DNA of 64,000 nt from Squalus acanthias (taxonomy: Eukaryota). Each line of letters opens with the position of its first letter. Positions within the stretch are counted from its first letter, which is position 1. The stretch is taken from assembly GCA_030390025.1 (NCBI GenBank), contig JASTWF010000048.1, positions 1,860,001-1,924,000 on the forward strand. Reading direction: 5' to 3'. Below, piece after piece: positions 44-60,116 of the stretch. Both the position numbers and the translations under genes were made by a program. The notes below the pieces were generated by a model that saw only the letters and a list, made by a program, of their open reading frames with translations, was not told the origin of the DNA and did not search any database.

Positions 44-150
44 GTGCTGCCAACTAGTGGCGTAAATAAGCACTGAACATCTATCTCGAGCTGGCACCTG
101 CTGGCGAAACTTCAGCACTGAAGTTCCATATCGAGCTGTCAATTTGCAAT
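44..150 (-). promoter_or_regulatory. Tandem CTCF motif array, distal part (family-A V1 unit)
   Basis: ~44-bp units: gtgctgccaactagtggc (44-61) plus agcactgaa (69-77), and gagctggcacctgctggc (88-105) plus agcactgaa (114-122). Reverse complement matches the CTCF core CCASYAGRKGGCRS plus the upstream module. Confidence 0.6.
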
Positions 151-164
151 TTAATCTGAATGGA

Positions 165-680
165 GCAAAGTTAATGTCAAGTCCTCAGAGAGGGCGCAGA
201 AGAGATTCACTCGACTGCCACCAGGAATGCAGAGATTAAGTTACGTGGAGAGAGTGGATAAGTTGAGTTTGTTCTCCATAGAGCAGAGAACCATGCGCGA
301 AAATTTGACAGAGGTGTTCAAAATCATATATGCTTTGATTAGATTAAATCAGGAGAAACTGTTTGCAGTGGCAGAAGGGACGGTAAACAAAGGGCACAGA
401 TTGAAAGTAATTGGCAAACGAATCAGAGGGGAAGATGAGGAGATGTTTTATTTATGCAGCGAGTTGTTATTATCGTGAATACATTGTCTGAAAGAGCGGT
501 GGAAGCAGATTCAAAAATAACTTCCCAAAGCGTATTGAATATATACGTAAAGGGGAAGAATTTGCTATATGGGGAAAGAGCAGGGGGGAGTAGTAGTAAT
601 TGGATAGCTCTTTCAAAGAGCCGGTACAGTCACGGTGGTCCGAATGGCCTCCTTCCGTACTGGATCATTCTGTGGTGCGA
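165..680 (+). mobile_element. CR1-like LINE 3' fragment interrupting the CTCF array
   Basis: ORF 227-478 (LSYVERVDKLSLFSIEQR..LTEVFKII..GHRLKVIGKR) is a typical CR1 ORF2 C-terminus, followed by a 3' tail. Confidence 0.8.
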
Positions 681-684
681 TGAT

Positions 685-755
685 CTGGTCGGCAGAAACT
701 TTGCACTGAACTTTCATCTAGTGCTGCCACCTGGTGGCAGAAAGTGATCACTGAA
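685..755 (-). promoter_or_regulatory. RSS-proximal CTCF motif(s) of V1
   Basis: gtgctgccacctggtggc at 721-738 (rc GCCACCAGGTGGCAGCAC) with atcactgaa at 747-755, 36 bp from the RSS nonamer. A partial unit precedes it. Confidence 0.75.
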
Positions 756-774
756 CTCCCATTCATCCGCTGCA

Positions 775-813
775 GGTTTTTGTAGCTGGGGAGCCGCTTT
801 CTCAAACGCTGTG
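775..813 (-). other. 23-RSS of V1
   Basis: CACAGCG - 23 bp - ACAAAAACC. Confidence 0.95.
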
Positions 814-29578: not shown

Positions 29579-29617
29579 GGTTTTTGTATCAGTCTGCAGC
29601 AGTTTTGTACCGCTGTG
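29579..29617 (-). other. 23-RSS of V8
   Basis: CACAGCG - 23 bp - ACAAAAACC. Confidence 0.95.
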
Positions 29618-30064
29618 CGATACTCGCCGCACAGTAGTAGGTCGCAGAGTCTGACTGTTCGGCGCCGTTCAGGTGCAGAGTGAACTGGTTATTGGCAGCC
29701 TCGAGTTGCTTTGCGAATCGCTTCTCGAAATCGGGCCCACAGCTGCCGAAGGCACTGCACATCCACTCGAGCGCGCCGCCCTTTTGCCTGTACCAGAACA
29801 TGGTATAGCTGCTCATGCTCGCTCCCTCCAAACTGCAGCCGAGAGTGATCGTCTGTCCCTGTTTAATAGCCGCCGCGGATGGAGACTGGACCACAGTGGG
29901 TACTGCCCCGATCCCTAGATTAGATATTCAACAGAAAAAGGCCTGTAAGTGCAATCTCTTCATTTTTTTTACTGTTGGCAATGGATAGTTTAATGCTTAC
30001 CACAGATCTGTAGAACGACCGTCAACGTGACCAAGGTTGGGAGCATTGGAGAGGAGAAACCCAT
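29618..30064 (-). CDS. TRBV: TCR V segment V8 (family D), functional
   Basis: Leader 30001-30064 (MGFSSPMLPTLVTLTVVLQIC). V exon 29618-29914: ..SMSSYTMFWYRQKGGALEWMCSAFGSCGPDF..YYCAASI. Confidence 0.9.
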
Positions 30065-33000
30065 GGCCCTGCTCAAGCACTGAAAGAGAACCTTAGCGAC
30101 AACAGTTTACCACTAAAATTGCTCTCCTGGATTGTAATGCCGTTGCTGACGAACTCTGAGGGAAAGTCGAGCAGCCAATCGTGTTGTACCACCGGAAGAT
30201 TGAAGACGTGTGTCGCATTTCCTTTGATGACGTGGTGTTTGCAAAATCGCAAACAAAGAAGCAAGATCATATCATACAATCGTGGAGTCATAAAGCGCAG
30301 AAGCAGGGCATTCGGCCCATCGAGACTGTGCTGGCTCTTTGAGAGAGAGATGAAATTGATTCCACTCCTCTGATCTTTCCGGATAGCCCTGCAAATTGCA
30401 TGTTCGGTACATCTGGCCAAACCGGCTTGGTTATGCGATCCATCTTTTTTTCTTTCCTACTTTGTTTTCTTTCGTTATTTCTTTGCTTCCTTCCTTGTTT
30501 ATTTACATTTCTCTCCCTTTCTGCCCTTTTTTTTCTTTTGCTTCTCATTACTTCCCTTCTTTCTTTCTGTCCTGCCTACATTCATTGCTTTGTCTCTTAG
30601 GTCCTTCGAAATCAATTTGCCTTCTCTTCCAATGATATCAAGTGAAATATTGCGCTTCACTTCACCAGAGGGCTATGGATGCTCAGCCGCTGAGCATTTT
30701 CAAGACGGATAGCGATATATTTTTGGACACTGTGGGAATCAAGGAATGTGGGGATAATGCGGGAAAGTGGAGTTGAGATCGAAGATCAGCCATTCTCTTA
30801 TTGAATGGTGGAGCAGGCTCGACGGGCCGTGTGGCCTACTTCTGCTCCTATTGATTACGTTCTCATGAAATGATTAAATTCCAGTGAGAATGGAGTATAT
30901 GTGGTGCAGCAATGGCATCTAGTGGTGTAGTAATATATGACACGTAAGGAGCACGTGACAATAATAAGGAAAGCAAGAATAACTTGCATTTATACAGCGC
31001 CTTTCACGACCACCGGATGTCTCAACGCGCTTTACAGCCGACGAATTACTTTTGAAGTGGTGTCACTGTTGTAATGTGGGGAAAGCGGCAGTCAATTTGC
31101 GCACAGAAAGCTCCCACAAACAGCAATGTGAAAATGACCAGATCGTCTGTTTTTGTCATGTTGGTTGCTAGTCTCGAAATTGACAGGTGCAGATCATTTA
31201 TATATATATATATATATATACATATCTACATATCTTATTCGTTTATGGGATGTGTGCGTCGCTGGCAAGGCCAGAATTTATTGCCCATCCCTAATTGACC
31301 TTTAGAAGAAGGTAGTGAACCGCCGTCTTGACCGCTGCAGTCCGTGTGGTGAAGGAACACCTACATTGCTATTTGAGACTGAGTTCCAGGATTTTGAACC
31401 AGCGACGATGAACGATACGCGATATAATTCTAAGTCAGGATGGTGTGTGACTTGGAGGGGAACTTGGAGGTGGTGGTCTCCCCATGCGCCTGCTGCCCTT
31501 GTCCTTCTCGGGGGAAGAGGTCACGGGTTTGGGAGGAGCTGCCGAAAAAGAGCCGAGATGCTGCAGTGCATCTTGTAGATGGTAGACACTGCAGCGACGG
31601 TACGCCAGTGATGGAGGGAGTGAATGTTTAAGGTGGTGGATGGGGTGCCAATCAAGCGAGCTGCTTTGTCTTCGATGGAGTCGAGCTTCTCGAGTGTTGC
31701 TGGAGCTGCACTCATCCAGGTATTTGGAGAGCATTCCATCACACTCCTTACTTTTTCCTCTATAGCGTCTGTGACGTAGGAAAACGTCACAAAGCGATTT
31801 GCAGGAGCGTAAGTCAGGCCGAATGTGACACCGAGCCACCTAAGGAGATAAAAGGACAGCTGACCAAAAGCTCAGCCGAAGAGGTAGGTTTTAGGAGCGT
31901 TTAAAAGAAGGAGAGGCCGAGAGGTTTAGGGAGGGAATTCCAGACCCTGGGGCCCAGACAGTTGAGGGCACGGCCGCCAATGGTGGAGTTGAAATTCGGG
32001 GATGCGGAAGGGGCCGGAATTAGAAGAGTGCAGAGATCTCAGAGGGTTGTGGGGCTGGAGGAGATAGGGAGGGGGCGAGGCCACGGATGGATTTGAAACC
32101 AAGGAAGATAATTCTAAAATCGCGACGTTGCTGATTGATGTGTGAACGGGAAGTGGTGCGGTGTTTGATACCGGGAGCAGAGTTTCGGATGAGCTGAAGT
32201 TTAGGATCGGGCAAGGTGGGAGGCCTTCCAAGAGATCACTGGAATAGTCTGCAGCAGAATTCGGCTACAACGAAAATAGTCCACTCCTAACGCAGATATG
32301 AGGTGAGGAAAACCCCATTTGTGCGGTCCAAATTCAGCTGTTCATTCTAAGCTTGCTGCACTTACATTATCGAATCATAGAATGGTTACAGCACAGAAGG
32401 AGGCCATTCGCTCCGTCGAGCCCGTGCCGGCTCTCTGCAAAAACACTTCACCTAGTCCCACTCCCCCGCCATTTCCCCGTAGCCCTGCATTATTTTCCCG
32501 TTTAGGTACTTATCCAAGTCCCTTTCGAAAGCCACGATAGAATCTGCCTCCACCACCCTCTCAGGCAGTGCATTCCAGATCCTAACCACTCGCTGCATAA
32601 AAAAAGTTTTTCCTCATGTCTCCTTTGGTTCTTTTGCCAATCACCTTGAATCTGTGTCCTTTGGTTCTCGACACTTCCGCCAATGGGAACAGTTTCTCTC
32701 TATCTACTCTGTCTAGACCCCTCACGATTTAAATACCTCTATCAGATCTCCTCTCAACCTTCTCTGCTCTAAGGAGAACAACCCCAGCTTCTCCAGTCTA
32801 CCAAGTAACTGACGTCCCTCATCTCTAGAACCATTCTTGTAAATCTTTTCTGCACCTTCTCTAAGGGCTCCAAATCCTTCCTAAAGTGCGGTGGTGAGAA
32901 TTGGACACAATACTCCAGTTGATGCCGGAACAATGCTTTAGAAATGTTCTTAATAACTTCCTTGCTTTTGCACTCTCTATCTGTATTTATCAAGCCAAGG

Positions 33001-33532
33001 ATGCCATGACTCTATCCCAAAATGTAATTTGGAATGCTGCAAGTTTTAGCAACCATGGCTCGTTTGGTCGACCTCTCGCCACTGAGTCAGAGGGTCGTGT
33101 GTTCAAGTCCCACTCCAGAAACATGGTCAGACATATCTAAGCTGAGGCAGTGTTGCACTTCGGAGGGGCAGTGCTGAAAGAGTGTTGCACTCTCAGAGCG
33201 GTCACACTAAGGGAGTGCTGCACTGTCGAATGTTCAGTTCTGGACAATGTTTATCCCTCAACCAACATCACTAAGCAAAACTGATGATCTGGTCATTGAC
33301 ACATTGGCTGTTTGTGGGAGCTTGCTCTGCATGGATTGGCTGCGGCGTTTCCTACATTACGGCAGCGACTAGACTTTAAAATATGGCGTCATTGGCGGTT
33401 AAGCTTTTCAGCACGCCCCGAGGTCATGACCCGCGCCATGGAAATGCAATCTCGTTACTTCCTTTCGTCATCAATTTATCCAGATGGGACCCCTTCACAG
33501 GTGGCGATGAGCGTACGGTGGGCGGGACAGGA

Positions 33533-33571
33533 GGTTTTTGTATCAGCCTGCGGCAGTTTTATGTCGCTGTG
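33533..33571 (-). other. 23-RSS of V9
   Basis: CACAGCG - 23 bp - ACAAAAACC. Confidence 0.95.
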
Positions 33572-34028
33572 CGAGACTCGCCGCACAGTAGTAGGTTGCA
33601 GAGTCTGACTGTTCGGAGCCTTCCAGATGCAGAGTAAACTGGTTATTGTCAGCCTCGAGTTGCACTGAGAATCGCTTCTCGAAATCGGGCCCACAGCTGC
33701 CGTAGGCACTGCACATCCACTCAAGCGCGCCGCCCTTTTGCCGATACCAGAACATGGTGTAGGTGCTCATGCTCGCTCCCTCCAAACTGCAGCCGAGAGT
33801 GATCGTCTGTCCCGGTGGAACAGCGGCCGCGGATGGAGACTGGACCACAGTGGGTGCTGCCCGGACCCCTAGATTAGATATTCAACAGAAAAAAAGGCCT
33901 GTAAATGCAAGCAATTCCTTTTTTGTAACCGTTGGCAATGGATAGTTAAATGCTTACCGCTTACCACAGATCACTAGCACGAACGTTAACGTGACCAAGG
34001 CTGGAAACATTGTAGACGAGAAACACAT
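33572..34028 (-). CDS. TRBV: TCR V segment V9 (family D), functional
   Basis: Leader 33965-34028 (MCFSSTMFPALVTLTFVLVIC). V exon 33572-33868: ..SMSTYTMFWYRQKGGALEWMCSAYGSCGPDF..YYCAASL. Confidence 0.9.
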
Positions 34029-35294
34029 CGCTCCTCTCACGCAGTGAAACAGAGCTTTTGCGACAGCAGGCCACACACTAAATTGCTCTTCTCGAATGGC
34101 AACGCCACCGCTGGTGAAGAACTATGCGGGAAGGCCGAGCAGCCAATCGTGTGATTGGACCACGCAATATTGAACACATGAGACGCGTTTCCTTTGATGA
34201 CGTGGAGTTTGCAAAATCGCAAACAAAGAAGAAAGATCATACCATACAATCGTCGAAACATGAAGCTCAGAAGGAGGCCATTCGGACCAGCGAGCCTGTG
34301 CTGGCTCTTTGAGAGAGCTCTCGCACTGGTTCCACTCCTCTGCTCTTTCCGGACACTTCTGCAAATTGCATGTTCGGTACATGTAGCGAAAGCGCCTGGG
34401 TTGAGCTGCCCATTTTTCTTTTCTTTCATACTTTTTTTATTCCTTTCTTCCTCTGCTTCATTCCTTGTTTATTTCCCTTTCTCTCCCTTTCTCTCCTTTG
34501 TTCGTTTGTTCCTGATTGCTTTCCTTCTTTCTTTCTGCCCTGCCTCCATTCATTGCTTTTTTCCTTCGTTCCTTCCAAGCCTAGTTGCCTTCTCTTCCAT
34601 TGTTAAGAACTGAAATTATTTGGGCTTCACTACACTAGACGGTTGTGGATGCTCAGTCGCTGAGCATTTTCAAGACTGATAGCGATAGATTTTTGTAGAC
34701 GAAGGGAATCAAGGGATATGTGGGATAATGCGGGAAAGTGGAGTTGAAGTCGAAGATCAGCCATGCTCATATTGAATGGTGGAGAAGGCTCGACGGGCAG
34801 TATGGCCTACTTCAGCTCCGATTGATTGTGTATTCATGAAATGATTAAATTCCAGTGAGAATGGGGTATATGTGGTTCAGCAGTGCCATCTAGTGGTGTA
34901 GTTGTATATGACACTTAAGGAGCACATGACAATAATAAAGAAAGAAAGACTTGCCTTTAGAAAATGCCTTTCACGACCACTGGACGTCTCAAAGAGCTTT
35001 ACAGCCAACAAAGCACCTTTGAAGTGGAGTCACTGTTGTAATGTGGGAAACGCGGCAGCCAATTTGCGCACAGCAAGCTCCCACAAACAGCAATGTGAAA
35101 ATAACCCGATCGTCTGCTTTTGTCATGTTAATGTCTACTCCCGAAATTGATAGGTTCAGAGCATTTACATATATATATTTTTATTCGTTTATGGGATTTG
35201 GGCGTCGCTGGCAAGGCCAGTATTTATTATCCATCCCTAATTGCTCTTCAGAAGATCGTGGTGAGCCGTCATTTGATAGATTTGATTTGGCTAA

Positions 35295-37645
35295 ATCGTG
35301 GGGCAGTACTGAGGGTGTTCTCCAATGTCGGAGGGACTGACCTGGGGGAGCACTGCTGTATCGGAGGGGCAGTACTGAGGGATGGCTGCACTCTCGAAGA
35401 GGCAGTATTGAGGGTGCGCTGTACTGTCGGAGGGGCAGTACTGAGGGTGCGCTGCACTGTCGGAGGGGAAGTACTGAGTGATCGCTGCACTGAGTGAGGG
35501 GCAGTACTGAGGGGTCCGCTGCACTGTCGGAGGGGCAGTACTTAGGAGCGCCGCACTGTCGAAAGGGCACTGCTGAGGGAGCGCTGCACTTTCGGGGAGC
35601 CAGTACTGAGGGAGTGCTGCATTGTCGGAAGAGCTGCACTGAGGGAGCGCTGCACCGTCGGAGGGGCTGCAATAAGGGGGCGCTGCAATGTTGGAGGGGC
35701 AGTACTGAAGGAGCGTTGCACTATTGGAGGGGCAGTACTGGGGGTCCGCTGCACTGTCGGAGGAGTAGTACTGAGGGAGCGCCGCACTGTCGGAGAGGCA
35801 GTACTGAGGGAGCGCTGTAATGTACGAGAGGCAGTCTTGAGGGAGCGCTGCACTGTCGGAGGGGCGTTACTGAGGGAGCGCTGCAGCGATGGAGGGGCAG
35901 CTCTGAGGGGCCGTTGCAATATCGGAGGGGCAGTACTTAGGAGCGCCGCGCTGTCTGAGGGGCAGTAATGAGGGAGTGCTGCAATGTGGCAGGGGCAATA
36001 TTGAGGGAGCCCTGCATTGTCGGAGGGGCATTACTGAGGGAACTCCACAGTTGGATAGGCAGTACTGAGGGAGATCTGCACTATCGGAGGTGCAGTACCG
36101 GGGGCACGCTCCACTGTCCGAGACGCAGTACTGAGGGAGCGCTGCACTGTGTGGAAGGCAGTACTTCGGGAGTGCCACACTGTGGGAGGGGCAGTATTGC
36201 GGGAATGTCGCACCGTGGAAGGGGCAAAACTGAAAGATTGCTGCACTGTAGGAGGGGAGTGTACTGAGTGCGTGCTGCACTGTGGGATGGTCGGTACTGA
36301 GGGTGCGCTACACTGTCGGAAGGGCAGTACTGAGGCGGCGCTGCAATGTGGGAGGTGCAGTATTGAGGGAGTGCGGCACTGTTGGAGAGGCGGTACTGAG
36401 GGATCGCTGCACCATCGGAGGGGCGATACTGGAGGGGCGCTGCACTGTCGGTGGGGCAGTACTGAGGAGCAGCGTGCTGTCGGGGGGGCAGTAATGAGGG
36501 AGCGCTCCAATGTGGAAGCGGCAGCTCTGATGGATCGCTGGACTGTCAGAGGGGCAGTACTTTGGGAGCGCTGCAGTGTCGGAGGGGCACTATTGGGGGA
36601 TTGCTGCACTCTTGGATGGTCAATACTGAAAGTGCGCTGCACTGTCGGAAGGGCAGTACTGAGGGAGTGCTGCACTGTAGGAGGTCATTACTGAGGGAGT
36701 GCTGCACTGTAGGAGGGCAGTACTGAGGGATGGCTGCAATTTAAAGGGGAAGGACTGAGGGAGCGCTACACTGACGGATGGACAGTACTAAGACAGCGTT
36801 CCACTGTCGGAGGGGCAGTATTGAGGGATGGCTCCACTGTCGGAGGGGCAGTACTGAAGGAACGCTGCACTGTTGGAGGGACAGTACTGTGGGTGCGCGA
36901 CACTGTCGGAGGGTCAGTACTGAGGGAGTGCTGCACCGTCGGAGGGGCATTACCGAAGTGGCACTGCACTATCGGAGGGGCAATACAGGGGGTGCGCTGC
37001 ACTGTCGGACGGGCAGTACTGAGGGAGAACTGCACTGTCTGAGGGGCAGTACTGAGGGAGCACTGCAATGTGGGAGGGGCAGAATTGAGGGAGCGCTGCA
37101 GAGTCGCTGATGCACTACTGAGGGATAGCAGCATTTTATGCAGGGCAGTACTGAGGGACCACTGCATTGTCGGAGGGGATGTACTGAGGGTGCTCTGCAC
37201 TGTCGGAGGGGCAGTATTGAGGGAGCGCTGCACTGTGGGAGGGGCAGTACTGAGCAAGTGCCGCAATGTGGGAGGGGCAGTACTAAGGGAGCGCCGCACT
37301 CTCGGAGAGGTTGTACCGAGAGAGCTCTGCGCAGTGGGAGGGGCAGTATTGCGGTAGTGCTGCACTGTGGGAGGGACTGTCTGAAGGAGTGCAGCACTTT
37401 CGGAAGGGCAGCACTGAGGGAGGACTGCCCTGTCGGCGGGGCAGTGCTGAGGGAGTGCCGCACTGTCGGAAGCGCAGTACTGAGGGAGCGCTGCACTGTC
37501 GGAAGCGCAGTACTGAGGGAGCGCTGCACTGTCGGAGGCGCAGTACTGAGGGAGCGCTGCACTGTCGGAGGGGCAGTACTGAGGGAGTGCCGCACTGTCG
37601 GAGGGGCAGTACTGAGTGAGCTCCGCACTGTAGGAGGAGCAGTCC
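35295..37645. repeat. 33-bp SINE-derived minisatellite, about 2.3 kb
   Basis: Unit gcagtactgagggagcgctgcactgtcggaggg, the reverse complement of the 22.2-kb array. Ends in ordinary SINE body sequence. Confidence 0.95.
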
Positions 37646-37838
37646 TTAGCAATGTTTATCTCTCTACCAACATCACTAAAAAAAATCAGATACTCTGGTC
37701 ATTACGGGGACTATTTGTAGGAGTTTACTATTTAGAAATTGGCTGCTGCGTTTAGCACGCCTTAGAAATGCAAATTGCTTCGCTAGATTACTGAGTTGTC
37801 TGGACGGCACCGATGAGCGCACGGTGGGAGGGTGAGAA

Positions 37839-37877
37839 GGATTTTGTATCAGTCTGCGGCAGGTTTGTGTCGCTGTG
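37839..37877 (-). other. 23-RSS of V10
   Basis: CACAGCG - 23 bp - ACAAAATCC. Confidence 0.92.
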
Positions 37878-38543
37878 CGAGACTCGCCGCACAGTAATAG
37901 TTCGCAGAGTCTGTCAGCTCGGAGCCTTCCAGGTGCAGAGTCAACTGGTTGTCTGCTGCCTCGAGTTTCACTTTGAATCGCTCCTCGAAACCGGGCCCAT
38001 AGCTGCCGAACTCATTGCACACCCATTCTATGGCGCCTCCCTTTTGCCTGTACCAGTGCAATCTGAAGCTGCGTTTGCTTGCTCCCTCCAAACTGCAGCC
38101 GAGAGTGAGGGGCTGTTGCCGTCGAATAGCGGCCGCGGCGGGAGTATAGAACGCAGTAGGAGCAGCCCGAATACCTAGATTAGATTTAAACAAAGAAAGC
38201 GGTTTAGAATCATGGAAGGAATATCTTAGCTTAAAACCGTAGAATCGTGAAGCACAGAAGTAGGCCATTCGGCCCATAATGCCCGTGCCGACACTGTGAA
38301 AGAACTATTTTGCGAGTGGCTTTTTCCCTTGCTCTTATCCCGTAGTACTTCAAATCCCCCATTCAAGTATTGATCCAATTTCCATTTTGGAACTTATTAT
38401 TGGATCTACTTTCACTTGCATAACAACGCAATTTCTTTCGTTTACTCTGCCAAAGGATATTTCAATGCATTGCACTGACAACAGAACCAATGTCCGAGCG
38501 ATAAGGCGACAAAGATTAATAACATTCGAGATGAGAAACACAT
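37878..38543 (-). CDS. TRBV: TCR V segment V10 (diverged family D), open frame
   Basis: Leader 38480-38543 (MCFSSRMLLIFVALSLGHWFC, weak GTCAGT donor). V exon 37878-38174: LGCSLEGASKRSFRLHWYRQKGGAIEWVCNEFGSY..YYCAASL. Confidence 0.78.
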
Positions 38544-39722
38544 CGCCCCTTCTCAGGAAGTGAGAGTCAGGGTTACTCAGCGACAACCTGTCGCCTGTAA
38601 AATTGCTCTCCTCAACGGAAATGCCACCGGTTGTGACGAACTGCACGTACGTATTGAGCAGCTCATCTTGTGATTGGACCGCACAAGTCAGCAGATTGAA
38701 CAAATGAGAAGCAGTTCCTTTACTAGCATTGTTTTTGCGAATACATCAAAATAGAAGGAACATTATAGCACGGAATCATAGAATGATACAGTGGCGAAGG
38801 AGAGCTGCCCAAGTAGTCCCAATAAACCTGCTCTGTCCCCATATTTCTGCATATTGTATGTTCGCTATTTCTAGCAAAATAAACCGGGTTAGGAAAACAC
38901 TCTTTCTTTCTGTGTTTCTTTCTCTCTCCTTCTTTCTCTCCTTCTTTCTCTCCTCCACTTTATTTATTTCTTTATTTCTTCCTTCCTTACCACGCTTCTT
39001 ACTTCATTTTTTTCTTTCCTTCTTTCATTCCTATTTTTCCTCCTTTCTTCCATGTAAAATTGCTTGATCTTCTGCTGATTAGAAATTAGATGCTTTGTGT
39101 TCCAGTGAGAATGGAGTACATGTGAGGCAACATTGTCATCCGGTGGTGCAGTCGCATCTGACACTTAAGAAACACATGAAAATAATCTCGCAATTAATAG
39201 GTTAAGAGGAAGTCATCCGACATTGCTAACCAACTTTCTTTAAGAAGAATACATTTTTTCACTATTTTCAGCAAATATTTGGCCTTCTGAGCTGAGAAAT
39301 GACATGAATTGTTAAGGCTCACTGTGGCTGCATTGTGTACCAGCTACAAGATGCAACTCGCTGAGGCTTCTTCGACAGCACCTCTAACATGTAGAACAAC
39401 AAGGGCCAAAGGTGCAGAGGAACACCATCGCCTCCAATTCCCCTCCAAGTCACACACTATCCTGACTTGGAAATAAATCACCGTTCCTTCATTATCGCTG
39501 GGTGAAAATCCTGGAACTTCGTCCTAAACAGCACCGTGGGAGTACCTTCACCAGACCTACTGCAGCGATTCAAGAAGGTGGCTCACCACCACCTTCTCAA
39601 GGGCAGTTAGGAATGGGCAATAAACACGGGCATTGCCAACGAAATCCACATCCCGTGAAAGAATTAAAAAAATTCGGTTCCTTTATATCGCCGCTGGCGA
39701 GAGGTGCCTTTCTTCCTCAGTG

Positions 39723-39761
39723 AGTTTTTGTCACGACGCCCTGCATTCTTAGAACACTGTG
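39723..39761 (-). other. 23-RSS of V11
   Basis: CACAGTG - 23 bp - ACAAAAACT. Confidence 0.95.
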
Positions 39762-40577
39762 CGCGCCCCTGTACTCTTTGTGCGCCACACAGTAATAAAT
39801 GCCGCTGTCTTGGGCCCGGGTATTAGTCAGGGAGACCCTGTAAGTGTTGTTTTCAGGGGCGAATTGGACGCCAATCCTATTTCTGTAGTTAGGTGAAGAA
39901 AAGACACCCAATCTGACGGAATCCAGGCGGTCCCCGATCTGCACGTACCAGTCGAGCCAATAGTTACTCATGTTGCCCGGCCCGATGCTGCAGTCGAACA
40001 CGGCTTCCTCCCCTGGAACCTGGACGGTGGCCGACGGGAACTGGACGACGAGTCTTTGGGAACGAACATCTGAAAGATTATGTAAAAAAACAGTCAGGCA
40101 GATCGATCGTAGATGTACAATAGTGGGTGGCAGGGAATATGAAAGGGACAGAGGCTGGAGCCGAAGAAAGAGAAAAGGAAAGAAACAAATTAGTTTTTCT
40201 GAAATGGCGGTGTTATCTCCTCGCTTCTATTTGCTCTACAGGTTATACGTCGGGTTTATTGAACTGATGCAAGTATAAACGCGCCAAACTCGAAAGTGGA
40301 AAGGACAAAGACAAACGAGCTCAATCTGGATCTGAAAGAGGGCATTTAAATAATTTTCGTATGATCCTCTATCAGAATAAGTATAACTTTTACTCGGATC
40401 AAAGAACAGCAAAGTATTTGAATTTGGTTAACGAAGTACAATATATCAATATATAACGTCATCAATACGAACATTAATTGTCGTTAACCCGATAGCAATG
40501 TTACGAAATGGACGAATAGGGTTTACTGTCTCATACATACAAGAATTGGACAGCAGAAATATGGAAAGCCAATACAT
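39762..40577 (-). CDS. Divergent V segment V11 (family E) with long germline CDR3
   Basis: Leader 40541-40577 (MYWLSIFLLSNS, GTATGT donor). V exon 39762-40069: VRSQRLVVQFPSATVQVPGEEAVFDCSIGPGNMSNYWLDWYVQ..DSGIYYCVAHKEYRGA. TGACATCA (rc) at ~40622-40629. Confidence 0.85.
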
Positions 40578-41354
40578 AACGAGAATTGTCTTCCGGTAAT
40601 AGTTCAGCCTCCTTTGCAAACTGATGTCAAACTACTTTCAGGTCGTTTTCAGAGGAGGATGGTCTCGATAAAGATTGTACTCGCGCCACAATGACCGTTG
40701 CGTCGACGACTGGTAAATAAATGAACTGCTTCTGCACTTGGAGCGAGCGCTGGGAACGCCCACCGCAAAACTGCGCACGCAACGCCTCCAATCATATGTT
40801 CGATGCAGTGCGCTGCCAACAGCGCACCAATGGAACCATTGATGGGAAGAGAGATGTAAACCCGGAGACCGTCCCAGGTTCCCGCCCACAGATGGAGAGA
40901 ATGGTTGAAAGAGAGAGACTGGACGAGAGAGGGACCGAGAGAGGCAGAAAGAGAAAGAGACTGACAGACTGACAAAGACGTATGGAGATTCAAAAGAAAC
41001 GAGGTGATACAGAGAATGAGAGAGACTGGACGAGAGAGAGAGTGAGAGGGTGAGATAGACAGGGGCAGAGGGCGAGCACATGAGGGAGGGAGAGAGACTC
41101 AGAAATGGAGGGAGAGAAAATGATAGCGACAGAGAGAGAATGAGACAGGGACAGACAAAGAGAGAGAGGGAGCAGAGAGAGAGCGAGAGAGAGATAGCAA
41201 GAAAGAGAGGAAATAAGCGAGTAAAAGAGTGCCAGAGAGAGATTGAGAGAGAGAGAGCAACAGAGAGACAGAGGGACAGAGAGGAAGAAAGCGATTTTGC
41301 AAAAAAAAAGAATGAATACTACGTTTATAAAAAATCGGGCAAGACTCGGTTGGA

Positions 41355-41455
41355 ATGCAATTGTGAGAAGTCGCACGACACCAGGACATCGTCCAACAGT
41401 TTTATTTGAAATCACAAGCCTTCGGAGCGCTGCTCCTTCGTCAGGTGAAGTGAAA
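41355..41455 (-). mobile_element. Penelope-type terminal-repeat fragment with a mutated hammerhead motif
   Basis: Reverse complement of 23830-23920. The core reads CTGACGA..GAAG. Confidence 0.6.
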
Positions 41456-41674
41456 TTGTTAGAGGTTAGACGGCGAGCGTCGAGTCTAATGAAACAGTTC
41501 ATAGATTCGCGCAATGTTTTCATGAAGTTAGAATCTACTGGATCAAATGGGAGTCATCCCGATATTTGTGGATCGAATGAGCGGTCGGGAGACTTCCGGT
41601 GTTCGTGGTGTCGCGGTGTCACCGTCTGACAGTTGAGACGATCGCATTGATCATGCTTTGGGTCTGACTGAGGG

Positions 41675-41713
41675 TCTTTTTGTCAAAGAGAGGCGGTGTT
41701 TTCACACGCCGTG
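41675..41713 (-). other. 23-RSS of V12 (degenerate)
   Basis: CACGGCG - 23 bp - ACAAAAAGA. Confidence 0.8.
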
Positions 41714-41995
41714 CATGACAGCGCGCAGAAGTAGGCCGCGGTGTCCGACTGAAAGGCTCCGGTTGGTTCCAGATTAAACTCGGTGTCGCTAGGTCTCTGG
41801 GCTTTAAAGGGTCCGGACGTGTAATCGGAATCGTGGTCGGTCCCGGCGGATTGGAACAGAGCCTCGAGTTCCCGGTTTGCCCCTTGTCGGTACCAGTACT
41901 AGGTGCGATAGTTAGTGTTCCTCAGGATACATCTCATTACGGCCGAATTTCCTTCGGGAACGGACACAGTAGGCGGCGACTGGTCAATGAACGAA
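41714..41995 (-). pseudogene. TCR V pseudogene V12 (family-A-related)
   Basis: SFIDQSPPTVSVPEGNSAVMRCILRNTNYRT*YWYRQGANRELEALF..DTAAYFCALS. TAG at 41899-41901. The 5' end abuts a CR1 fragment (41995-42280) and no normal acceptor is visible. Confidence 0.88.
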
Positions 41996-42654
41996 AACTG
42001 TTTCTCACTCCCTACTCTATCAAAACCCGACAGATCTTTCAACACCTCTAATAAATCTCCCGCTACTCTTCTCCCCAGTCCAAGTTTCTCCAGTCTCTCC
42101 ACATAACTCAAGATGCCCATCCCTGGTACCATTCTTGTAAACCTCTTCTGCACCCTTTGAAAGGTCTTTAAATCTTTCCTAAAGTGTGGTTCCCAAAAAT
42201 GGACACAAAACATCAGATGCAGTCTAATTAGTGATTTATAAATGATTCCCGTAACTTCCTTGCTTTTGTACTCTATGCAAGTGCGAATCTATGCTTTCGT
42301 TGCGTGTTGCAGCCGAATCTCAACAGATATTGTTATATATACATATATATATATTCCCACTTTTAGATCGGTGCATTAAAGGGACTTAGCTTGAATTAAT
42401 GCCATCGAAAAGACTAAATATGATACTTCCCCAAATATGTTCAGTTCCTTAGACAAGGGCAGTCTGGGGGCGCCAGTCTGCAAAGATAGACTCTGGGCTT
42501 TACCCCACGGCAGAGTTGGAAAAGCTTTGAAGCCGCGGGTTGCGGAATGACGTTTCAGCTTGACACATTTGGTTGCACGCTCGCCTCTGAGTCAGAAGAT
42601 CGTGGGTTGAATTCCTGCTCCAGGGACTTGTGCACAAAATTGAAGGAGACGATC

Positions 42655-43030
42655 TTTGAGGGAGCGCTGCACTATCGGAGGGGCAGTACTGAAGTAGCAC
42701 TGCACTGTCGGAGGGGCAGTATTGAGGCAGCGTTAAACTGTCGGAGGGTCAGTACTGAGGGAACGCTGCCCTGTCGGAGGGGCAGTACTGAGGGAGTGCT
42801 GCACTGTCGGTGGAGCAGTACTGAGAGTTTGCCACACTGTCGAAGCTGCAGTACTGAGGGTGTGCTGCACTGTCGGAGGAGCAGTAGTGAGAGTTTGCCA
42901 CACTGTCGGAGGGGCAGTACTGAGGGAGCGCTGAAATCTCGGAAGGGCACGAATGAGCGTTTGCAGCATTGTTGTTGGAGCAGTACTGAGGAGTGGCATT
43001 GTAGGAGGAGCAGGACTAAAGTAGTGCTGC
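42655..43030. repeat. 33-bp SINE-derived minisatellite inside a SINE
   Basis: Same unit as 35295-37645. Confidence 0.9.
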
Positions 43031-43725
43031 ACTACCGGACATGTGAACGCTCTACTGCTGGAGGTGGCGTCTTTCGGATGAGAGGTTTAACCGAGGCCCC
43101 GTCTGCCCTCTGAGGTGGACTGAAAAGTTTCCATGGGTGCTATCGGAAGAAGCGCAGCAGCGATCTCGCCGGTGCCCTGGGCCAATATTTATCGCACAAC
43201 CAATATTACTAAAACAGATTAACTGGTAATTTTTGTAATTTCTGTTTGAGGGATCTTGCTGTGCGTAATTCGGCTGTCGCTTTTGCTGCATTACAACAGT
43301 GACTACACTGTAAAAGTACTCCAATCGCTGAAACCTCTTCTGGAAGTCCCGGGGTCGTAAAAGGCGCTATATAAATACAATTATTCCTTTCTTTCTTTAT
43401 GTCCACCTCAGGGGGCAGATGGCAAAATTAGTTTTAAAGTGACACCTCCGACAGTGCAGCACTCCCTCAGTACTGGCACTGTAGTGTCAGCCTGGATTAT
43501 ATGCTGAGGCCTCCAGAGATGGGTGCGGGGTTGAAACCTTCACCGTCTGACTCGGACGTGAGAGGGCTATCACGTGAGCCAAAGCTGACACCGAGTATTG
43601 AAAGCTGAGACTTGTGCTGTATTTGAGCTCGTCCCTACAGCCAGTGGCGCTGAATGAAAAGGCAGCAAGGGCTCTGTCAGTCGGTCCGAGTGTGCAACAG
43701 CTTTTTAAATCTGTGCATGACACAA

Positions 43726-43880
43726 GTGCTGTCAGTTAGTGGTGGAATGTTAGCACTGACCTTCCATCCAGGCTGCCACCTTGTGGTGAGATGTAAACAC
43801 TGAACTTCCAATCAGTGCTGCCATCTGGTGGCGGATAGTAGGCACTGAATTGCAATCCAATGCTGCCACCTGGCGACATA
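43726..43880 (-). promoter_or_regulatory. Tandem CTCF motif array, distal part (V13 unit), 4 units
   Basis: Cores at 43726, 43771, 43815 (gtgctgccatctggtggc) and 43860, period 44-45. The first three are followed by (a/g)cactga modules. Confidence 0.7.
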
Positions 43881-43889
43881 AACTTAACG

Positions 43890-44600
43890 GTACAACGTTG
43901 ACGGGGGGCGGAACACAGAGACCTGCGGGCAGAAGTATACAAGTCTTCTAAATCCGCAGGGTCAGTTGAGAAGGTTATTAAAAAAAAAAGCGGAATCCTT
44001 GGCTTCGTAAACAAAGGCATAGAGTATTAAAGCAAGGAAGTTGGGGTTAAACTTTATAAATCACTATTTATACCCCAGCTGGAGTTTTGTGTCAAATGCT
44101 GGGCTCCCCGCTTTCGGAGGGGTATCAAGTCCTTACAGTGAGTGCACAGGAGATTTACTAGAAAAGTAGCAGGGATAAGGGACTTCACTTATGTAGAGAG
44201 ACTAGAGAAGCTGAGGTTCCTCTGCGCAGATCAGAGACGAATAAGGGGGAACTTATAGGAAGTGTTCAAAATCATGAAGGCTTTTGATAGAGTAAATAAA
44301 GAGAAACTGTTTCCAGTGGCAGAAGGGTCGATAACCAGAGGACATAAATTTAAGGACCAGATAGGGATATGATGAGTTGTTTTTTTGTAGAGCGAGCTGT
44401 TATGGTTTGGAATGCACTGCCTGAATGGGTGGTGGAAGCAGATTCAATAAGAAATTTCCAAAGGGAATTAGATACACACCTGAAACGGGCGTTCACTGGG
44501 CTATGGGGAAAGGCACGGGATTGGGCCCCTTTGAAAGCAACGGTATATGCACGTGGGGCAGAATGAACTCCTTCCGTGCTGTATCATTCTTGTAATTCTA
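43890..44600 (+). mobile_element. CR1 3' fragment inserted in the CTCF array
   Basis: Degenerate CR1 ORF2 C-terminus (ORF 44369-44566 VMVWNALPEWVVEADSI) with a ttctatg tail. Confidence 0.85.
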
Positions 44601-44601
44601 T

Positions 44602-44672
44602 GCCGTGGTGGCAGAATAGTTGCACTCAAATCAAATCTAATGCTGCCACCTGGTGGCGTACAATGTGCACTA
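44602..44672 (-). promoter_or_regulatory. RSS-proximal CTCF motif(s) of V13
   Basis: atgctgccacctggtggc at 44640-44657 plus a partial unit at 44602-44627. Confidence 0.75.
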
Positions 44673-44693
44673 CTCTCCCATTCAGCCGCTGCA

Positions 44694-44732
44694 GGTTTTT
44701 GTAGCTGGTGAGCCGCTTTCTCAAACGCTGTG
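44694..44732 (-). other. 23-RSS of V13
   Basis: CACAGCG - 23 bp - ACAAAAACC. Confidence 0.95.
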
Positions 44733-45654
44733 CGATACTACAAGCACAGTAATAGACAGCGGTGTGAGACGGAGAGGCGACGCTCAGTTCCAAAGTAAAC
44801 AGCGTACTGCTGGTTCTGTCGGCCTTAAAAGACTCGGTCGTGTACTTCGTAACATCACCTGCTAGAGCAGAATAGAAAAGAGCTTCTAATGCCCGGTCGG
44901 GTTGTTGTCTGTACCAGTACATATAGGGATAGCCAGTATTCGTCAGTGTGCATCTGATCGTCGTCGACTCTCCTGCTCCAATCGATAGGACAGAAGGCGA
45001 CTGCTCCACGTACAAGGCGAGTATTCCTGTCGAAAGCAACATCGATTAGTTTCTTATTTTTGTCAATAATTGATTTAAGCACGGACTACAGAGAAAAAGA
45101 ACTTCCATTCATAAAGCGCATTCACGACCTCAGAATTTCATAAAGCTCTTTACAGCCAATGAAGCGCTGATTAAAGTGTAGTCATTGTTGTAACGTAGGA
45201 AAGGAGACAGCCAATTTGAGCACAGTAAGCTCCCACATATTACATTGAAATAAATGACATGTACTTCTGCTTTTTTGGTGTTTGTAGTGGGATTCATGTT
45301 GGCCCAGGACACCGGCGACAGCTTCGCTGCTCTTCTTCTAATACTGCCCTGGGATCATTTACGTCCACCTGAGAGGGCAGCTCGGTTTAACTCCTTATCT
45401 GAAACATGGCCCCTCCGAAATTACAGCACTCCCTCTGTGCTGGTCTCGGGAGTGTCAGCATAGATTTTGTGCTCAAGTCTCAGGAGCAAAACTCGAACCT
45501 AAAACGTTTGATTCAGAGGCAAGGATTCTACCAGCTGAACAACAACTGACATTATAATACATCATTCTACAAAGACCTCTGTTAAAGTTTGTTACTTTGA
45601 CTTACGTGGGATCAGTGTCACCATCAACGTTAGATAATAAACTTCATGAAACAT
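44733..45654 (-). CDS. TRBV: TCR V segment V13 (family A), functional
   Basis: Leader 45606-45654 (MFHEVYYLTLMVTLIP). V exon 44733-45026 ending HTAVYYCACSI. Confidence 0.9.
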
Positions 45655-45772
45655 GATTTATTCATTCGACAATGGATCACTGTGCGAACTAGTGCAGCTG
45701 AATACAAAGTTTAAAAGCAGTTTGTCGATTGGATCTGATTAAATATGAAGCATCCGGTTGTAATTGGCACTG

Positions 45773-45787
45773 TTACGTCACTTCCGG
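45773..45787 (-). promoter_or_regulatory. V13 promoter ETS-CRE element
   Basis: rc CCGGAAGTGACGTAA. Confidence 0.7.
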
Positions 45788-47309
45788 TGCAAAACACGCC
45801 CCATCCCACTCCTTCGCTAGTTTCGTAACTTCATAGAACCGTACAGCACAGAACGTTAAGGAAAGGACAAATAGACGTGTTAAATATTACGATTAGTTTC
45901 GATAGAGTTGAAAGGGAGAATCTAAATCCACTGGCAGGAGGGTCGTTAACAAGAGGGCAGAGGTTTAAGATGATAGGCAAAAGGACCAGCGGGGAGATGA
46001 GGAGACGTAAATTTTATTGCAGAGAGTAGTCATGATCTGGAATGCATTTCCTGAGATTGCGATGGAAGCAGATTCAATAATAACTTATTCAAGGGAATTG
46101 GATATAAACTTGATAAGAGAGAAACAGGGCTATGCGGAAGCAGCAGGGGAGAGGGACTAAATTGAAAATCGTGCATAAAATTAAAGGCCTTATAAGATAT
46201 ACACTCATTAATCCAAGAGGGAATTCAGGAGTAACCTCTTCACCCAAAGTGTGGTGAGAATCTGAAACTTGCTACCACATGGGGTGTTTGGGTCAAATAG
46301 CATAGTTGCATTTAAGGGGATGCTAGATAAGTACATGAGAGAGAAAGGAAGAGAAGGATATGCTAATGCGTGTACTTGAAGAGGGGTAGGACGAAGCCGG
46401 TGGGGGTCAAATTGGATAGGTCTTTCAAAGAGCCGCATCAGACCAGACGGGCCGAATGGCCTCCTTCAGTGCTGCAGGATTCTATGATTCTTGGAAAAAC
46501 GGAACGTTGCTGGGAAAAATGCTCTCCTGTTTCAGGCAGTGCAGGTTTGAGTTCCTATGTGCTGAGCGAGAATTCAAGGGTTAAATACTTTGCAGAAATG
46601 AATTCGCAGATTCTTTGAAAAACACATCAAAAGGCGCCTAGAGTATGTTAGAGAAGTGGGTAAACGGTTTTCAACAGATTCTGAAACCGCAGTTAGGATG
46701 CAGGTGTACGGGAGACAAACATATCTGAAGATGCCTCTCGCCTTCGCACAGTGTGAACCATCTGTTAGAATTGCAAGGTTTCTAACATTAACTATTTCCT
46801 AATTGTATGCGGTCTTCTCCTTCGAGCAGAGAATGTAAGGCGCAGCTTTACCAGAATGGCACCAGGAATGAGCGACTCCAGTTTACTGGAGACGCGGGAG
46901 AAGCTGGTGTTGTTCTGTCTGCAGCACGCAATCTGGTTCTTAAATGAAGATAATGTCTTAAAAGAACGACATTCAGTCCGTTGATACATCAAATTTTAAT
47001 TAATTAAAATCAATTTGTAACCTATTCAAGTTAGTTAGATCGATNNNNNNNNNNNNNNNNNNNNNNNNNNNNNNNNNNNNNNNNNNNNNNNNNNNNNNNN
47101 NNNNNNNNNNNNNNNNNNNNNNNNNNNNNNNNNNNNNNNNNNNNNNNNNNNNNNNNNNNNNNNNNNNNNNNNNNNNNNNNNNNNNNNNNNNNNNNNNNNN
47201 NNNNNNNNNNNNNNNNNNNNNNNNNNNNNNNNNNNNNNNNNNNNNNNNNNNNNNNNNNNNNNTCTATCTATCATTAGAACTGGTTAGGCGGTAGTGTCTG
47301 AGACGGGCG

Positions 47310-52108: not shown

Positions 52109-52125
52109 CAGCGCCCTCTGCTGTC
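52109..52125 (-). promoter_or_regulatory. CTCF motif in the family-G duplication unit
   Basis: rc GACAGCAGAGGGCGCTG. Paralogues at 49818-49833, 57912-57928 (rc GGCCAGGAGATGGCGCT) and a degenerate copy at ~62903. Confidence 0.6.
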
Positions 52126-53075: not shown

Positions 53076-54287
53076 CTGGGAAAGAGACGGGCAGAGAAGG
53101 AGGTCAGTAAACGGCGTCATTCGGGCAATGGGGAAAGGGAGCATTAGCGAAAGAAAGAAAGAGAGATAGATAGAAAGAAAGAAAGTAAATGGAGGTTGTC
53201 AGCAATAATTATTGTTTGAAAATCTCTCTTCAGGTGGATCAAGTTCAGCAGACACAGTAACAGATAAATCTTTTATTTTAATGTTTAATTCTAATGAGGG
53301 AAGGAGCGAGAGCAGGAGCATTGAGTGTTGCGAAGAGACAAAGCGCTCTTTTCAAAGCATTGAGAAAAACATGAAGAGCATAAAGAAGCAATAGAAGGAC
53401 GGTTACACCCTCTTACTCCAGTACAAACAATCGGAACCGACGTGTTTGCCAATGTCTCCCCCTTTCTCTCTCTGTCTTTTAATATCAATCTCTCTTTTTC
53501 TCTCTCGCTGTTCATCCGGCTCTCTATCTGCATCTCTCCCTGTCTGGCTTTGTATGTTTTGTCTCTCTCGCTCTATGTCTCTCTATACATGTGTGTGTCT
53601 CTCTATGTCTGTCTTTCTGTGTATTTCCCTCTTGTCTCTCTGTCTATCTCTCTCTCTGTCTCACTTTATCTCCTGTCTCTCGCTCTCTGTCTCTCTTTCT
53701 CTCTGTCTCTCTTTCACTTGCTTTCTCTCGATCTCTGTCTCTCTCTTTCCTCTCTCTGTCTCTCTTTCGTCTCTCTGTCTCTCTTTCATTCGCTTTCTCT
53801 CTCTCTTTGTCTCTCTCTTTCCTCTCTGTCTCTGTCTCTGTCTCTGTCACTCCCTCACTCACAAACTCTCTCTCTCTCGCTTTTTCTCTCTACTAAAGCA
53901 AACTGAATTGAAAGATAAACGTGGGCTGACCAGAGCTGATCTCCAGACTCAGACGGTGGAACAGGAGTGAGAGACACGCGGTCCCACACACTTCCATCAA
54001 CCTCCGTTCCTCCTGACGCTTCTACAAGTGCACGGATTGGTTACTCGTTGCAGGGCGGGGATGACGTATGATGTCAGACGTCGACGCCTCACTATCTTGT
54101 CCCAAGTCATTTAATGCGTGGAGGGCAGAGTTGGGAATAGGGGATGCGAGGGGAGGGAGAGGATGGCGTAGGAAAGTACAGAGGAGAGGAGTGGAAGGAG
54201 TGAAGGAGAAATCAAGCACTGAACTAATAGCTAGTGCTGCTACCTGGTGGCGGAAAATGAGCACTGAGCTCCCATTCATCCGCTGCA

Positions 54288-58972: not shown

Positions 58973-60116
58973 TTTGAGAAAGAGTCGGGGAGGAGGTCAA
59001 TAAACAGGGACATTCGTGGCAATGGAGAAAGAAAGAAAGAAATAAATAGAGACAGAAATAAAGAATGAAAGAAAGAGAAACGAAAGAAAGAAAAGAAGGA
59101 AGAAAACCTAAAGAGAGGTTATTAACAGGAATTATTTTTTGAAATAGTCCCTTATGTGACAGACTACGTAGACTAGGCTTATAGTCCATTGAGTATAGAA
59201 GATTGAGCAGTGATCCTACTGAGGTGTTTAAAATGTTAAAAGTATTGGAGACTGTAGATAGAGAGAAGGTATTCCCTCTGGTGAGGGGCAGTCCAGAACT
59301 AGGGGCCATCAGCTGAGCATTAAAGCGAGGCAGAACAAGGGTCATATCTGGAGGCACCTCTTGACACAATGAATAATGAAAATCTGCAGTTCTCTCGCCC
59401 AAAGTGCTGTTGAGGCCAGAGGTCAACTGGAGATTTAAAAACTTCGATTTTTGTTGGGTAAAGGTATCATGGGTTATGGAACCAGCTGGAGTTTTGGTTC
59501 CGATACTGAACACCACATTATCGGAAGTATATGAAGCCTTTAGAGAGGGTGCAGAGGAGATTTAATAAATGGTACCAGGGACAAGGGTCTTCAGTCACAT
59601 TCAGAGACTAGAGAAGATGGGATTGTTCTCCTTCGGGCGGAGATGATTAAGGGGGCATTTAATGGAAGTGCTCAAAATCATGAAGTGTTTTGTTGGAGTA
59701 AATCAGGAGAAACTGTATTCAGTGGCAGTAGCGTCGGTCACCAGTGGGCACAAATTTAAGGACCGGATAAGGCTATAATGATGTTTTTTTTTAAATTGTA
59801 GAGCGAGCTGTTCTGGTTTGGGATGCATTGCCCGAATAGGTGGAGGAAGCAAATTCAATAATAAATTTCCAAAGGCAATTGGATACACACTTGAAGCGGG
59901 ACGTTTACTGGGCTGTGGGGCAAAGGCACGGGAATCGGACTAATTGGATAGCTCGTTGAAAGTCCCGGTACAGGAAGGTGGGGCAGAAAGACCTCCTTCC
60001 GTGCTGTATCATTCTATGATTCTATGACATGGTGGCAGAATATTTGCACGGAAATAAGGTCTTGTGCTGCCACCAGGCGGCGGGAAATGAGCATTAACTC
60101 CCATTCATCCGCTGCA

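What the first reader, a model, noticed from the sequence alone, without database searches (positions are those of the whole stretch)
43726..44672. Tandem arrays of full-length CTCF sites directly behind family-A RSSs
Seen: each family-A V (V1, V13, V17, V19) has a CTCF core (best copies rc GCCACCAGGTGGCAGCA) about 36 bp past the nonamer. It is the first unit of a ~44-bp tandem repeat, with about 6 units for V13 (43726, 43771, 43815, 43860, ~44602, 44640) and about 5 for V1 (44, 88, ~133, ~685, 721). Across units the core and a (g/a)cactgaa module 7-8 bp beyond it are retained while the rest diverges. Established: this spacing matches the CTCF upstream module bound by zinc fingers 9-11, and single RSS-adjacent CTCF elements raise use of proximal mouse Igh VH genes by impeding cohesin-driven RAG scanning. 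Inference: a multimerised, copy-number-tunable stop signal for RAG scanning attached to particular V genes in an early-branching jawed vertebrate. I do not know of such arrays being described.
Basis: partly seen in the sequence, partly recalled or inferred. Interest (0 to 1): 0.82.

Follow-up and report, generated by a model that had tools for sequence, protein, structure and literature searches.

The report
CTCF-site arrays behind shark TCR genes
In a likely shark T-cell-receptor beta locus, one family of V gene segments carries a well-kept binding motif for the genome-folding protein CTCF just behind its DNA-cutting signal, which likely helps loop the segment to its partners as in mice; about a fifth of the family keeps an older, transposon-split row of 4-5 such motifs whose extra copies are mostly worn, so a tunable 'stop signal' is not shown.

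Summary
The array is real but smaller and rarer than reported. The window lies in a 2.28-Mb TCR-beta contig with two tail-to-tail D-J-C clusters and over 300 V segments. 62 of 66 family-A V segments carry a CTCF core about 37 nt past the nonamer, facing their own D-J cluster. The 44-45-bp unit was found nowhere else in the genome. Only 15 of 69 unit clusters have three or more units. A LINE splits unit 2, so V13 has 5 units (not 6) and V1 has 4 (not 5). V17 and V19 have one intact core. The RSS-adjacent core is constrained (0 of 14 changes against 30% neutral divergence, P=0.006). The distal units are weakly constrained at best (8 of 46, P=0.04; no signal within the V1 clade) and have been lost repeatedly. 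Two other organisms hold the V13 array, one copy lacking exactly one unit. Single RSS-adjacent CTCF sites and dense CTCF clusters in human IGH are published. This scan noted the single site before in this genome, and an eight-copy array in another shark genome. Binding and V usage are untested.

The parts
44734..45015 (-). V13 exon, family-A TCR V-beta, open frame
   Evidence: V-set; TCR beta chains among the best single-domain PDB matches
44694..44732 (-). 23-RSS of V13
44666..44674 (-). V13 unit 1 upstream module (degraded here, 5 of 9 to the HOMER consensus)
44643..44656 (-). V13 unit 1 CTCF core, perfect consensus match, faces D-J
44603..44629 (-). V13 unit 2, RSS-side half (module, spacer, first 9 nt of core)
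43877..44602 (+). CR1-type LINE 3' fragment inserted in the core of unit 2; high-copy dispersed repeat
   Evidence: broken ORF2 C-terminus; CR1 label recalled; summed contig depth up to about 1e6 vs about 20 on the array
43863..43876 (-). V13 unit 2, far half of core recreated by target-site duplication, no upstream module
43818..43849 (-). V13 unit 3: module (43841-43849, 7 of 9) plus perfect core (43818-43831)
   Evidence: core unchanged in organisms B and C
43773..43804 (-). V13 unit 4: module plus core with 1 mismatch; absent from one related copy in organisms B and C
43729..43760 (-). V13 unit 5 (last): module plus degenerate core (3 mismatches)
775..813 (-). 23-RSS of V1 (exon lies at about 814-1100)
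724..737 (-). V1 unit 1 CTCF core, perfect
146..682 (+). the same LINE insertion in V1 unit 2, with an internal deletion of about 220 nt (edges approximate)
47..104 (-). V1 distal cores (91-104 and 47-60), 1 mismatch each
54237..54250 (-). V17 single core (1 mismatch); only the module of unit 2 follows
60067..60080 (-). V19 single core with central A>T; matches better on the opposite strand

Best explanation
The first repeat unit behind each family-A V-beta recombination signal is a conserved CTCF motif facing the D-J cluster, and it likely binds CTCF and likely anchors or stalls cohesin loops so that the V segment meets the D-J recombination centre more often; the extra units are a likely ancestral 44-45-bp multimer of that site, split by a LINE and now mostly decaying, adding at most a modest reinforcement in a few genes such as V13. 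Shown: motif, position, orientation, family specificity, the LINE split, repeated loss of distal units, constraint on core 1. Inferred: CTCF binding, loop anchoring, effect on V usage, order of events.
For: 62 of 66 family-A V segments have the core within 150 nt of the nonamer, 48 at exactly the same offset. Core 1 differs at 0 of 14 sites between V13 and the majority of 13 V1-type genes, while the shared LINE differs at 143 of 473 (30%), P=0.006; the module (4 of 9) and spacer (2 of 9) lying between the RSS and the core are diverged, so this is not just a conversion tract from the exon. Across all 66 genes core 1 shows 21 parsimony changes vs 33.6 expected from its flanks, P=0.014. Perfect consensus matches follow the arm: left 21 plus / 0 minus, right 2 plus / 23 minus, about 0.15 expected per strand. 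The sister V family has a different core at +37 in 6-8 of 11 genes, and at least five other V families have their own D-J-facing sites. The same layout is functional in mouse VH (PMC7930373 passages; PMC6746451), and a V-linked CBE promotes Trbv1 recombination (PMC10772921). Relic status of the distal units: 54 of 69 clusters single; states follow clades; degraded V1-type cores; no excess conservation over the LINE within the V1 clade.
Against: No binding, contact or usage data. All family-A sites descend from one ancestral unit, so the 62 copies are not independent. Core 1 (1.5 changes per site) is not better kept than fourfold-degenerate exon sites (1.43), although the tree was built mostly on the exon. 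In the 13 V1-type genes alone core 1 is not significant (4 vs 6.2, P=0.27). The upstream module of unit 1 is not conserved among paralogs (27 changes in 9 sites vs 21.6 expected). In 11 of 62 genes a central A>T makes the reverse strand the better match. Three open-frame family-A genes lack the core. No perfect-consensus partner site lies in the 140-kb D-J-C centre (0 of either strand). Against 'mostly relic': distal modules plus cores differ at only 8 of 46 sites between V13 and V1 types (13.9 expected, P=0.04), and V13 cores 3 and 4 show 0-1 changes in 28 sites in organisms B and C at about 11% background (P=0.04-0.17).
Confidence: 0.6

Rival explanations
1. The number of CTCF units is a selected dial: genes with 4-5 units would stall extrusion more strongly and be used more than single-unit genes.
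For: Module and core are kept between units. Distal module plus core 8 of 46 changes vs 13.9 expected. V13 cores 3 and 4 kept in organisms B and C, and a related copy there lacks exactly one unit. Array genes lie nearer their D (168-805 kb vs 388-1107 kb, copies not independent). 2-4 tandem sites were needed for insulation at Sox2 (as cited in PMC12885311).
Against: 54 of 69 clusters are single. Loss came through a LINE and deletions and is inherited by clade. Units differ from each other at about half of non-motif sites, so the array is not being actively homogenised or expanded. V1-type distal cores are weak and evolve like the LINE within that clade. Distal units now sit 600-900 nt from the RSS.
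Confidence: 0.17
2. The whole element is a neutral old minisatellite that happens to resemble a CTCF site and was carried along by V-gene duplication.
For: One ancestral unit explains all copies. Core 1 is not better kept than fourfold sites in the exon-based tree. The module is variable among paralogs. Three open-frame genes lack the site.
Against: 0 of 14 core changes at 30% neutral divergence. Unrelated V families carry different cores with the same orientation. Motif columns are kept between units while spacers diverge.
Confidence: 0.13
3. The selected feature is the E-box (CAGGTG) inside the core, bound by E2A/HEB-type factors that would open the RSS, not a CTCF site (role of E-proteins at V-beta recalled, not read).
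For: 44 of 62 unit-1 cores hold a CANNTG; 6 copies break the CTCF consensus but keep an E-box.
Against: 18 of 62 lack the E-box. The conserved block spans the full 14 nt, well beyond 6. The other families' sites fit CTCF without sharing this E-box.
Confidence: 0.1

Closest known systems
RSS-associated CTCF-binding elements of mouse and human D-proximal VH genes (7183, Q52, VH81X; PMC6746451, PMC7930373)
   Same: Core at a fixed distance behind the nonamer, tied to particular V families, oriented toward D-J.
   Different: Here the locus is TCR-beta of a likely cartilaginous fish; the distance is about 37 nt (17-19 in mouse, 19 or 48 in human); the site is the first unit of a tandem repeat; binding is untested.
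Human IGH VH-domain CTCF 'hot spots' (3 sites in 100 bp up to 50 sites in 2.1 kb; PMC6746451)
   Same: Dense rows of CTCF motifs within a V domain; 50 in 2.1 kb implies about 42-bp spacing (my arithmetic), close to 44-45 bp here.
   Different: The human clusters are described as not RSS-associated; this array starts right behind the RSS, has 4-5 units and is split by a LINE.
Mouse Tcrb V-region CBEs, especially the Trbv1 CBE (PMC10772921, PMC5859386)
   Same: Same receptor locus type; V-region sites all face the D-J-C region.
   Different: Mouse has 18 single CBEs, only 2 near an RSS, with three convergent partners flanking D-J. Here more than 60 RSS-adjacent sites occur in one family, and no perfect partner was found at the centre, though the two arms face each other.
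Two-part CTCF sites (core plus upstream motif for zinc fingers 9-11; PMC12885311; HOMER motif listed in PMC5859386 Table S3)
   Same: A retained module lies 8-9 nt before the core, the spacing of the 5- and 6-bp-linker classes.
   Different: Only 5-7 of 9 letters match, the G of TGCAG is a T, and the module of unit 1 is not conserved among paralogs.

Membership tests
RSS-associated CTCF-binding element | core matching the CTCF consensus | tested here: met
   of 66 unit-1 positions: 30 perfect, 21 with one mismatch, 12 with two (one spurious), 3 with three; consensus as printed in PMC6746451; no JASPAR matrix was available
RSS-associated CTCF-binding element | fixed distance behind the nonamer | tested here: met
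   48 of 63 scored sites at the same offset, the rest shifted by small deletions
RSS-associated CTCF-binding element | oriented toward D-J | tested here: met
   49 of 62 match better forward, 11 better reverse, 2 tie; arm-wise strand bias
RSS-associated CTCF-binding element | core better conserved than adjacent sequence | tested here: met
   P=0.006 vs LINE, P=0.014 vs flanks; not vs fourfold exon sites
RSS-associated CTCF-binding element | bound by CTCF/cohesin in recombining lymphocytes | not testable with these tools
   no ChIP data
RSS-associated CTCF-binding element | raises use of the adjacent V | not testable with these tools
   no repertoire data
Two-part (11-finger) CTCF site | upstream motif at the 5-6-bp linker spacing | tested here: inconclusive
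   spacing fits, 5-7 of 9 letters match; kept between units but not among unit-1 paralogs; 3 changes in 18 module sites of units 3-4 in organisms B and C
Selected multi-site CTCF array (insulator or super-anchor type) | several strong sites maintained together | tested here: inconclusive
   met by V13 and its duplicate (2 perfect cores plus one with 1 mismatch); not met by the 13 V1-type genes; weak deep-time signal
Dispersed repeat / transposon-borne CTCF site | unit occurs elsewhere in the genome | tested here: not met
   15 of 15 DNA hits and 16 of 16 pattern hits lie on contig C3311; all 103 profile hits form 69 clusters, each behind a family-A RSS; searches can miss diverged copies
TCR-beta locus | V-23RSS, D with 12/23 RSS and the conserved D-beta sequence, J-12RSS, single C1-set exon | tested here: met
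   D at 960.5 kb matches the conserved TRBD sequence at 11 of 12 letters (PMC11754216); the PDB search with C2 was dominated by multi-domain Ig chains and did not decide the chain type

The most novel reading that the evidence does not exclude
Cartilaginous fish evolved a multimerised CTCF site directly behind a V-beta RSS whose unit number (1 to 5 here, 4 vs 5 in related organisms, reportedly 8 in another shark genome) sets how strongly each V segment anchors loops. In this tail-to-tail double TCR-beta locus the two V arms would supply each other's convergent partners around two central recombination centres, giving a natural dose series for testing how CTCF site number shapes V choice.
Probability: 0.17. 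Interest if true: 0.75.

Novelty: new variant of a known kind. Interest (0 to 1): 0.47.

Why it matters
If bound, the RSS-adjacent site would push the CTCF-assisted logic of V-gene choice back to the base of jawed vertebrates and into TCR-beta. The family offers near-identical V genes with 0, 1, 3 or more cores and some with a flipped core, so site number and direction could be tested against usage within one genome. The extra units alone look more like a fading relic than a dial, which lowers the surprise.

Tried and rejected
Six units for V13 and five for V1: rejected, one unit is split by a LINE. Dispersed-repeat origin of the unit: rejected within search sensitivity. Independent LINE insertions in V13 and V1: rejected, both junctions are shared and the flank beyond the array diverges equally, 30-35%. 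A link between core loss and pseudogenisation could not be tested: 63 of 66 family-A exons passed my open-frame test (the 'stop' labels came from a frame-picking error fixed). Comparing the shark module variant with the canonical upstream motif genome-wide had no power (0 vs 2 hits outside the locus). The module as a cryptic RSS heptamer: no nonamer at 12 nt by eye, dropped. Expression: no RNA holder listed; no RNA run was laid. Organism F gave no laid contigs on the array; no proof of absence. The PDB search with the C domain did not discriminate chain type. Literature: ten searches listed no paper on CTCF sites in shark TCR loci or on RSS-adjacent CTCF multimers; the library lacks most subscription papers. 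PMC13433984 has no mention of CTCF. Look-ups of earlier scan notes by sequence and by relatives returned nothing.

Full report
Setting. The window is G000:C3311:1,860,001-1,924,000 in a 3.7-Gb genome. I held 1.944 of 2.278 Mb of the contig; most counts use the first 1.864 Mb. A 23-RSS plus V-exon scan gave 322 candidates, one of them spurious. All left-arm V segments lie on the plus strand and all right-arm V segments on the minus strand. Between them sit two tail-to-tail clusters: D (960.5 kb), 28 J, C (1,014.6 kb, plus), and C (1,073.4 kb, minus), 3 J, D (1,099.0 kb). The first D matches the conserved TRBD sequence at 11 of 12 letters (PMC11754216, passages). This is a TCR-beta locus.

Observation. 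V1, V13, V17 and V19 belong to one family of 66 detected members. The published human consensus CCASYAGRKGGCRS (PMC6746451) gives 13 window matches at up to 1 mismatch against 0.79 by shuffling. With a slightly looser pattern 62 of 66 members have a core within 150 nt of the nonamer. With the strict one, 30 are perfect, 21 have one mismatch, 12 two (one of these is spurious) and 3 three. A profile of the unit finds 103 hits in 69 clusters, all behind family-A RSSs: 54 single, 13 with three hits, 2 with five. Genome-wide, 15 of 15 DNA hits and 16 of 16 pattern hits are on this contig, so the unit is not a dispersed repeat at this sensitivity.

Anatomy. A unit is a 7-9-nt module, an 8-9-nt spacer, the 14-nt core and about 12 nt more. 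A LINE 3' fragment sits inside the core of unit 2: it translates to a broken ORF2 C-terminus (CR1 label recalled) and is very high-copy. A short target-site duplication leaves half a core on each side. V13 and V1 share both junctions; V1 has an internal deletion of about 220 nt. V13 thus has 5 units and V1 has 4. Among the 66 genes, 15 keep the distal units, 20 keep unit 1, half of unit 2 and the LINE end, and 31 keep at most unit 1 and the module of unit 2, three of these having lost the core. These states follow clades on a midpoint-rooted tree, which gene conversion may distort. The remnant of unit 2 in all classes suggests the array is ancestral and was cut back several times (inference). 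Array genes lie 168-805 kb from their D and singles 388-1,107 kb, but duplication history confounds this.

Constraint, unit 1. The LINE serves as a neutral yardstick. V13 differs from the majority of the 13 V1-type genes at 143 of 473 LINE sites (30%), at 0 of 14 core-1 sites (P=0.006), at 4 of 9 module sites and at 2 of 9 spacer sites. Across 66 genes core 1 has 21 parsimony changes against 33.6 expected from its flanks (P=0.014), but is no better kept than fourfold exon sites (1.5 vs 1.43 per site), and the module is not conserved (27 vs 21.6). Within the 13 V1-type genes alone core 1 is not significant (4 vs 6.2).

Constraint, distal units. Between V13 and V1 types, distal modules plus cores differ at 8 of 46 sites (13.9 expected, P=0.04; cores alone 6 of 28, P=0.21). 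Within the V1 clade the distal cores change as fast as the LINE (9 vs 12.3, P=0.22), and they are weak: the penultimate is perfect in 1 of 13, with the conserved GGC read as GCC in 12 of 13; the last has two or more mismatches in 12 of 13. V13 keeps two perfect cores and one with one mismatch.

Other organisms. Of 21 listed runs I laid 7 distinct ones. A second sample of organism A holds the array flank and the RSS-side junction with 2 differences per piece. Organisms B and C (one study, nearly the same differences, so one comparison) hold the V13 array and the LINE junction at about 10-13% divergence. Listed changes fall in spacers, in modules 3 and 4 (3 changes) and in core 5 (2), none in cores 3 and 4. 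Differences near contig ends are not listed and one stays unplaced, so the count is 0-1 in 28 (P=0.04-0.17). A second copy in B and C runs from unit 5 straight into unit 3, lacking exactly one unit (loose ends). Organism E holds a V1-type last unit; organism F gave nothing.

Orientation and context. Perfect matches are 21 plus / 0 minus on the left arm and 2 plus / 23 minus on the right, about 0.15 expected per strand, none in the 140-kb centre. The flip between arms follows from the inverted duplication. More telling is that other V families carry their own, different, D-J-facing sites: the sister family at +37, the largest family about 1.8 kb before the RSS, and families 4, 5, 9 and 10. The family-A core is nearly palindromic, and a central A>T makes the reverse strand the better match in 11 of 62 genes.

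Mechanism. In mouse, a CBE just behind the RSS raises use of proximal VH genes (PMC7930373, passages). In mouse Tcrb, the Trbv1 CBE anchors and terminates loop extrusion, and synapsis does not depend on orientation (PMC10772921: abstract, sections 6 and 8, passages). The likeliest reading is therefore a loop anchor or pause at unit 1 that raises V-to-DJ contact; strict one-way RAG scanning is not required. The distal units are likely an old multimer under weak or lapsed selection. Binding, looping and usage are all inferred.

Prior art. PMC6746451 (abstract, first part of Results, Discussion, parts 1-2 of 3 of the supplement) reports RSS-associated sites at fixed distances in mouse and human VH and non-RSS clusters of up to 50 sites in 2.1 kb in human IGH. 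PMC5859386 (passages, Table S3) gives 18 bound sites in mouse Tcrb, 2 near an RSS, and the upstream-motif consensus. PMC12885311 (passages) describes the two-part site. Ten searches listed no paper on shark TCR CTCF sites or RSS-adjacent multimers; other papers were seen as listings only. Earlier scan notes (unchecked leads) record the single site in this genome and an eight-copy array in another shark genome.

Verdict. A real, family-specific, RSS-adjacent CTCF-type element with a partly decayed tandem extension: a new variant of a known kind. Interest 0.47. The tunable-dial reading stays possible at about 0.17.

Noticed in passing
G000:C3311:960,500-1,099,000 (L067-L070, L031-L040): Two D-J-C clusters lie tail to tail, each fed by its own V arm: 28 J plus C1 on the plus strand, 3 J plus C2 on the minus strand. 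The two C domains are only about 35% identical and the second D differs from the conserved D-beta sequence.
   Followed up: partly
whole contig C3311: Because the arms are inverted, their CTCF motifs face each other across both D-J-C clusters; each arm could serve as the other's convergent anchor.
   Followed up: partly
window 60067-60083 and 10 other family-A genes: One central A>T in the near-palindromic core makes the opposite strand the better match; in 2 genes it is a perfect reverse site.
   Followed up: partly
window 52111-52124; largest V family (109 genes) across the contig: A different CTCF-type core lies about 1.8 kb before the RSS, on the promoter side, facing D-J.
   Followed up: partly
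window 27086-27099 and 34883-34896: Perfect CTCF cores about 1.3 kb before the RSS of another V family, facing D-J.
   Followed up: no
window 41713; sister V family: The sister family has its own core at +37 in 6-8 of 11 genes; the copy in this window has a stop codon and has lost the core.
   Followed up: partly
window 27545-47044 vs G000:C3311:1,593,085-1,612,616: A 19.5-kb block containing V13 has a 97%-identical duplicate; further 95-99% blocks flank it. Real duplication or retained haplotype is not settled.
   Followed up: no
G000:C3311:1,101,120 and 949,691: Single CTCF-type sites about 2 kb before D2 and 11 kb before D1, both facing their D.
   Followed up: no
window 1418-1626, 22223-22860, 35300-37643, 42657-42991: A 33-34-bp tandem repeat family recurs at four places, up to 71 copies.
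   Followed up: no
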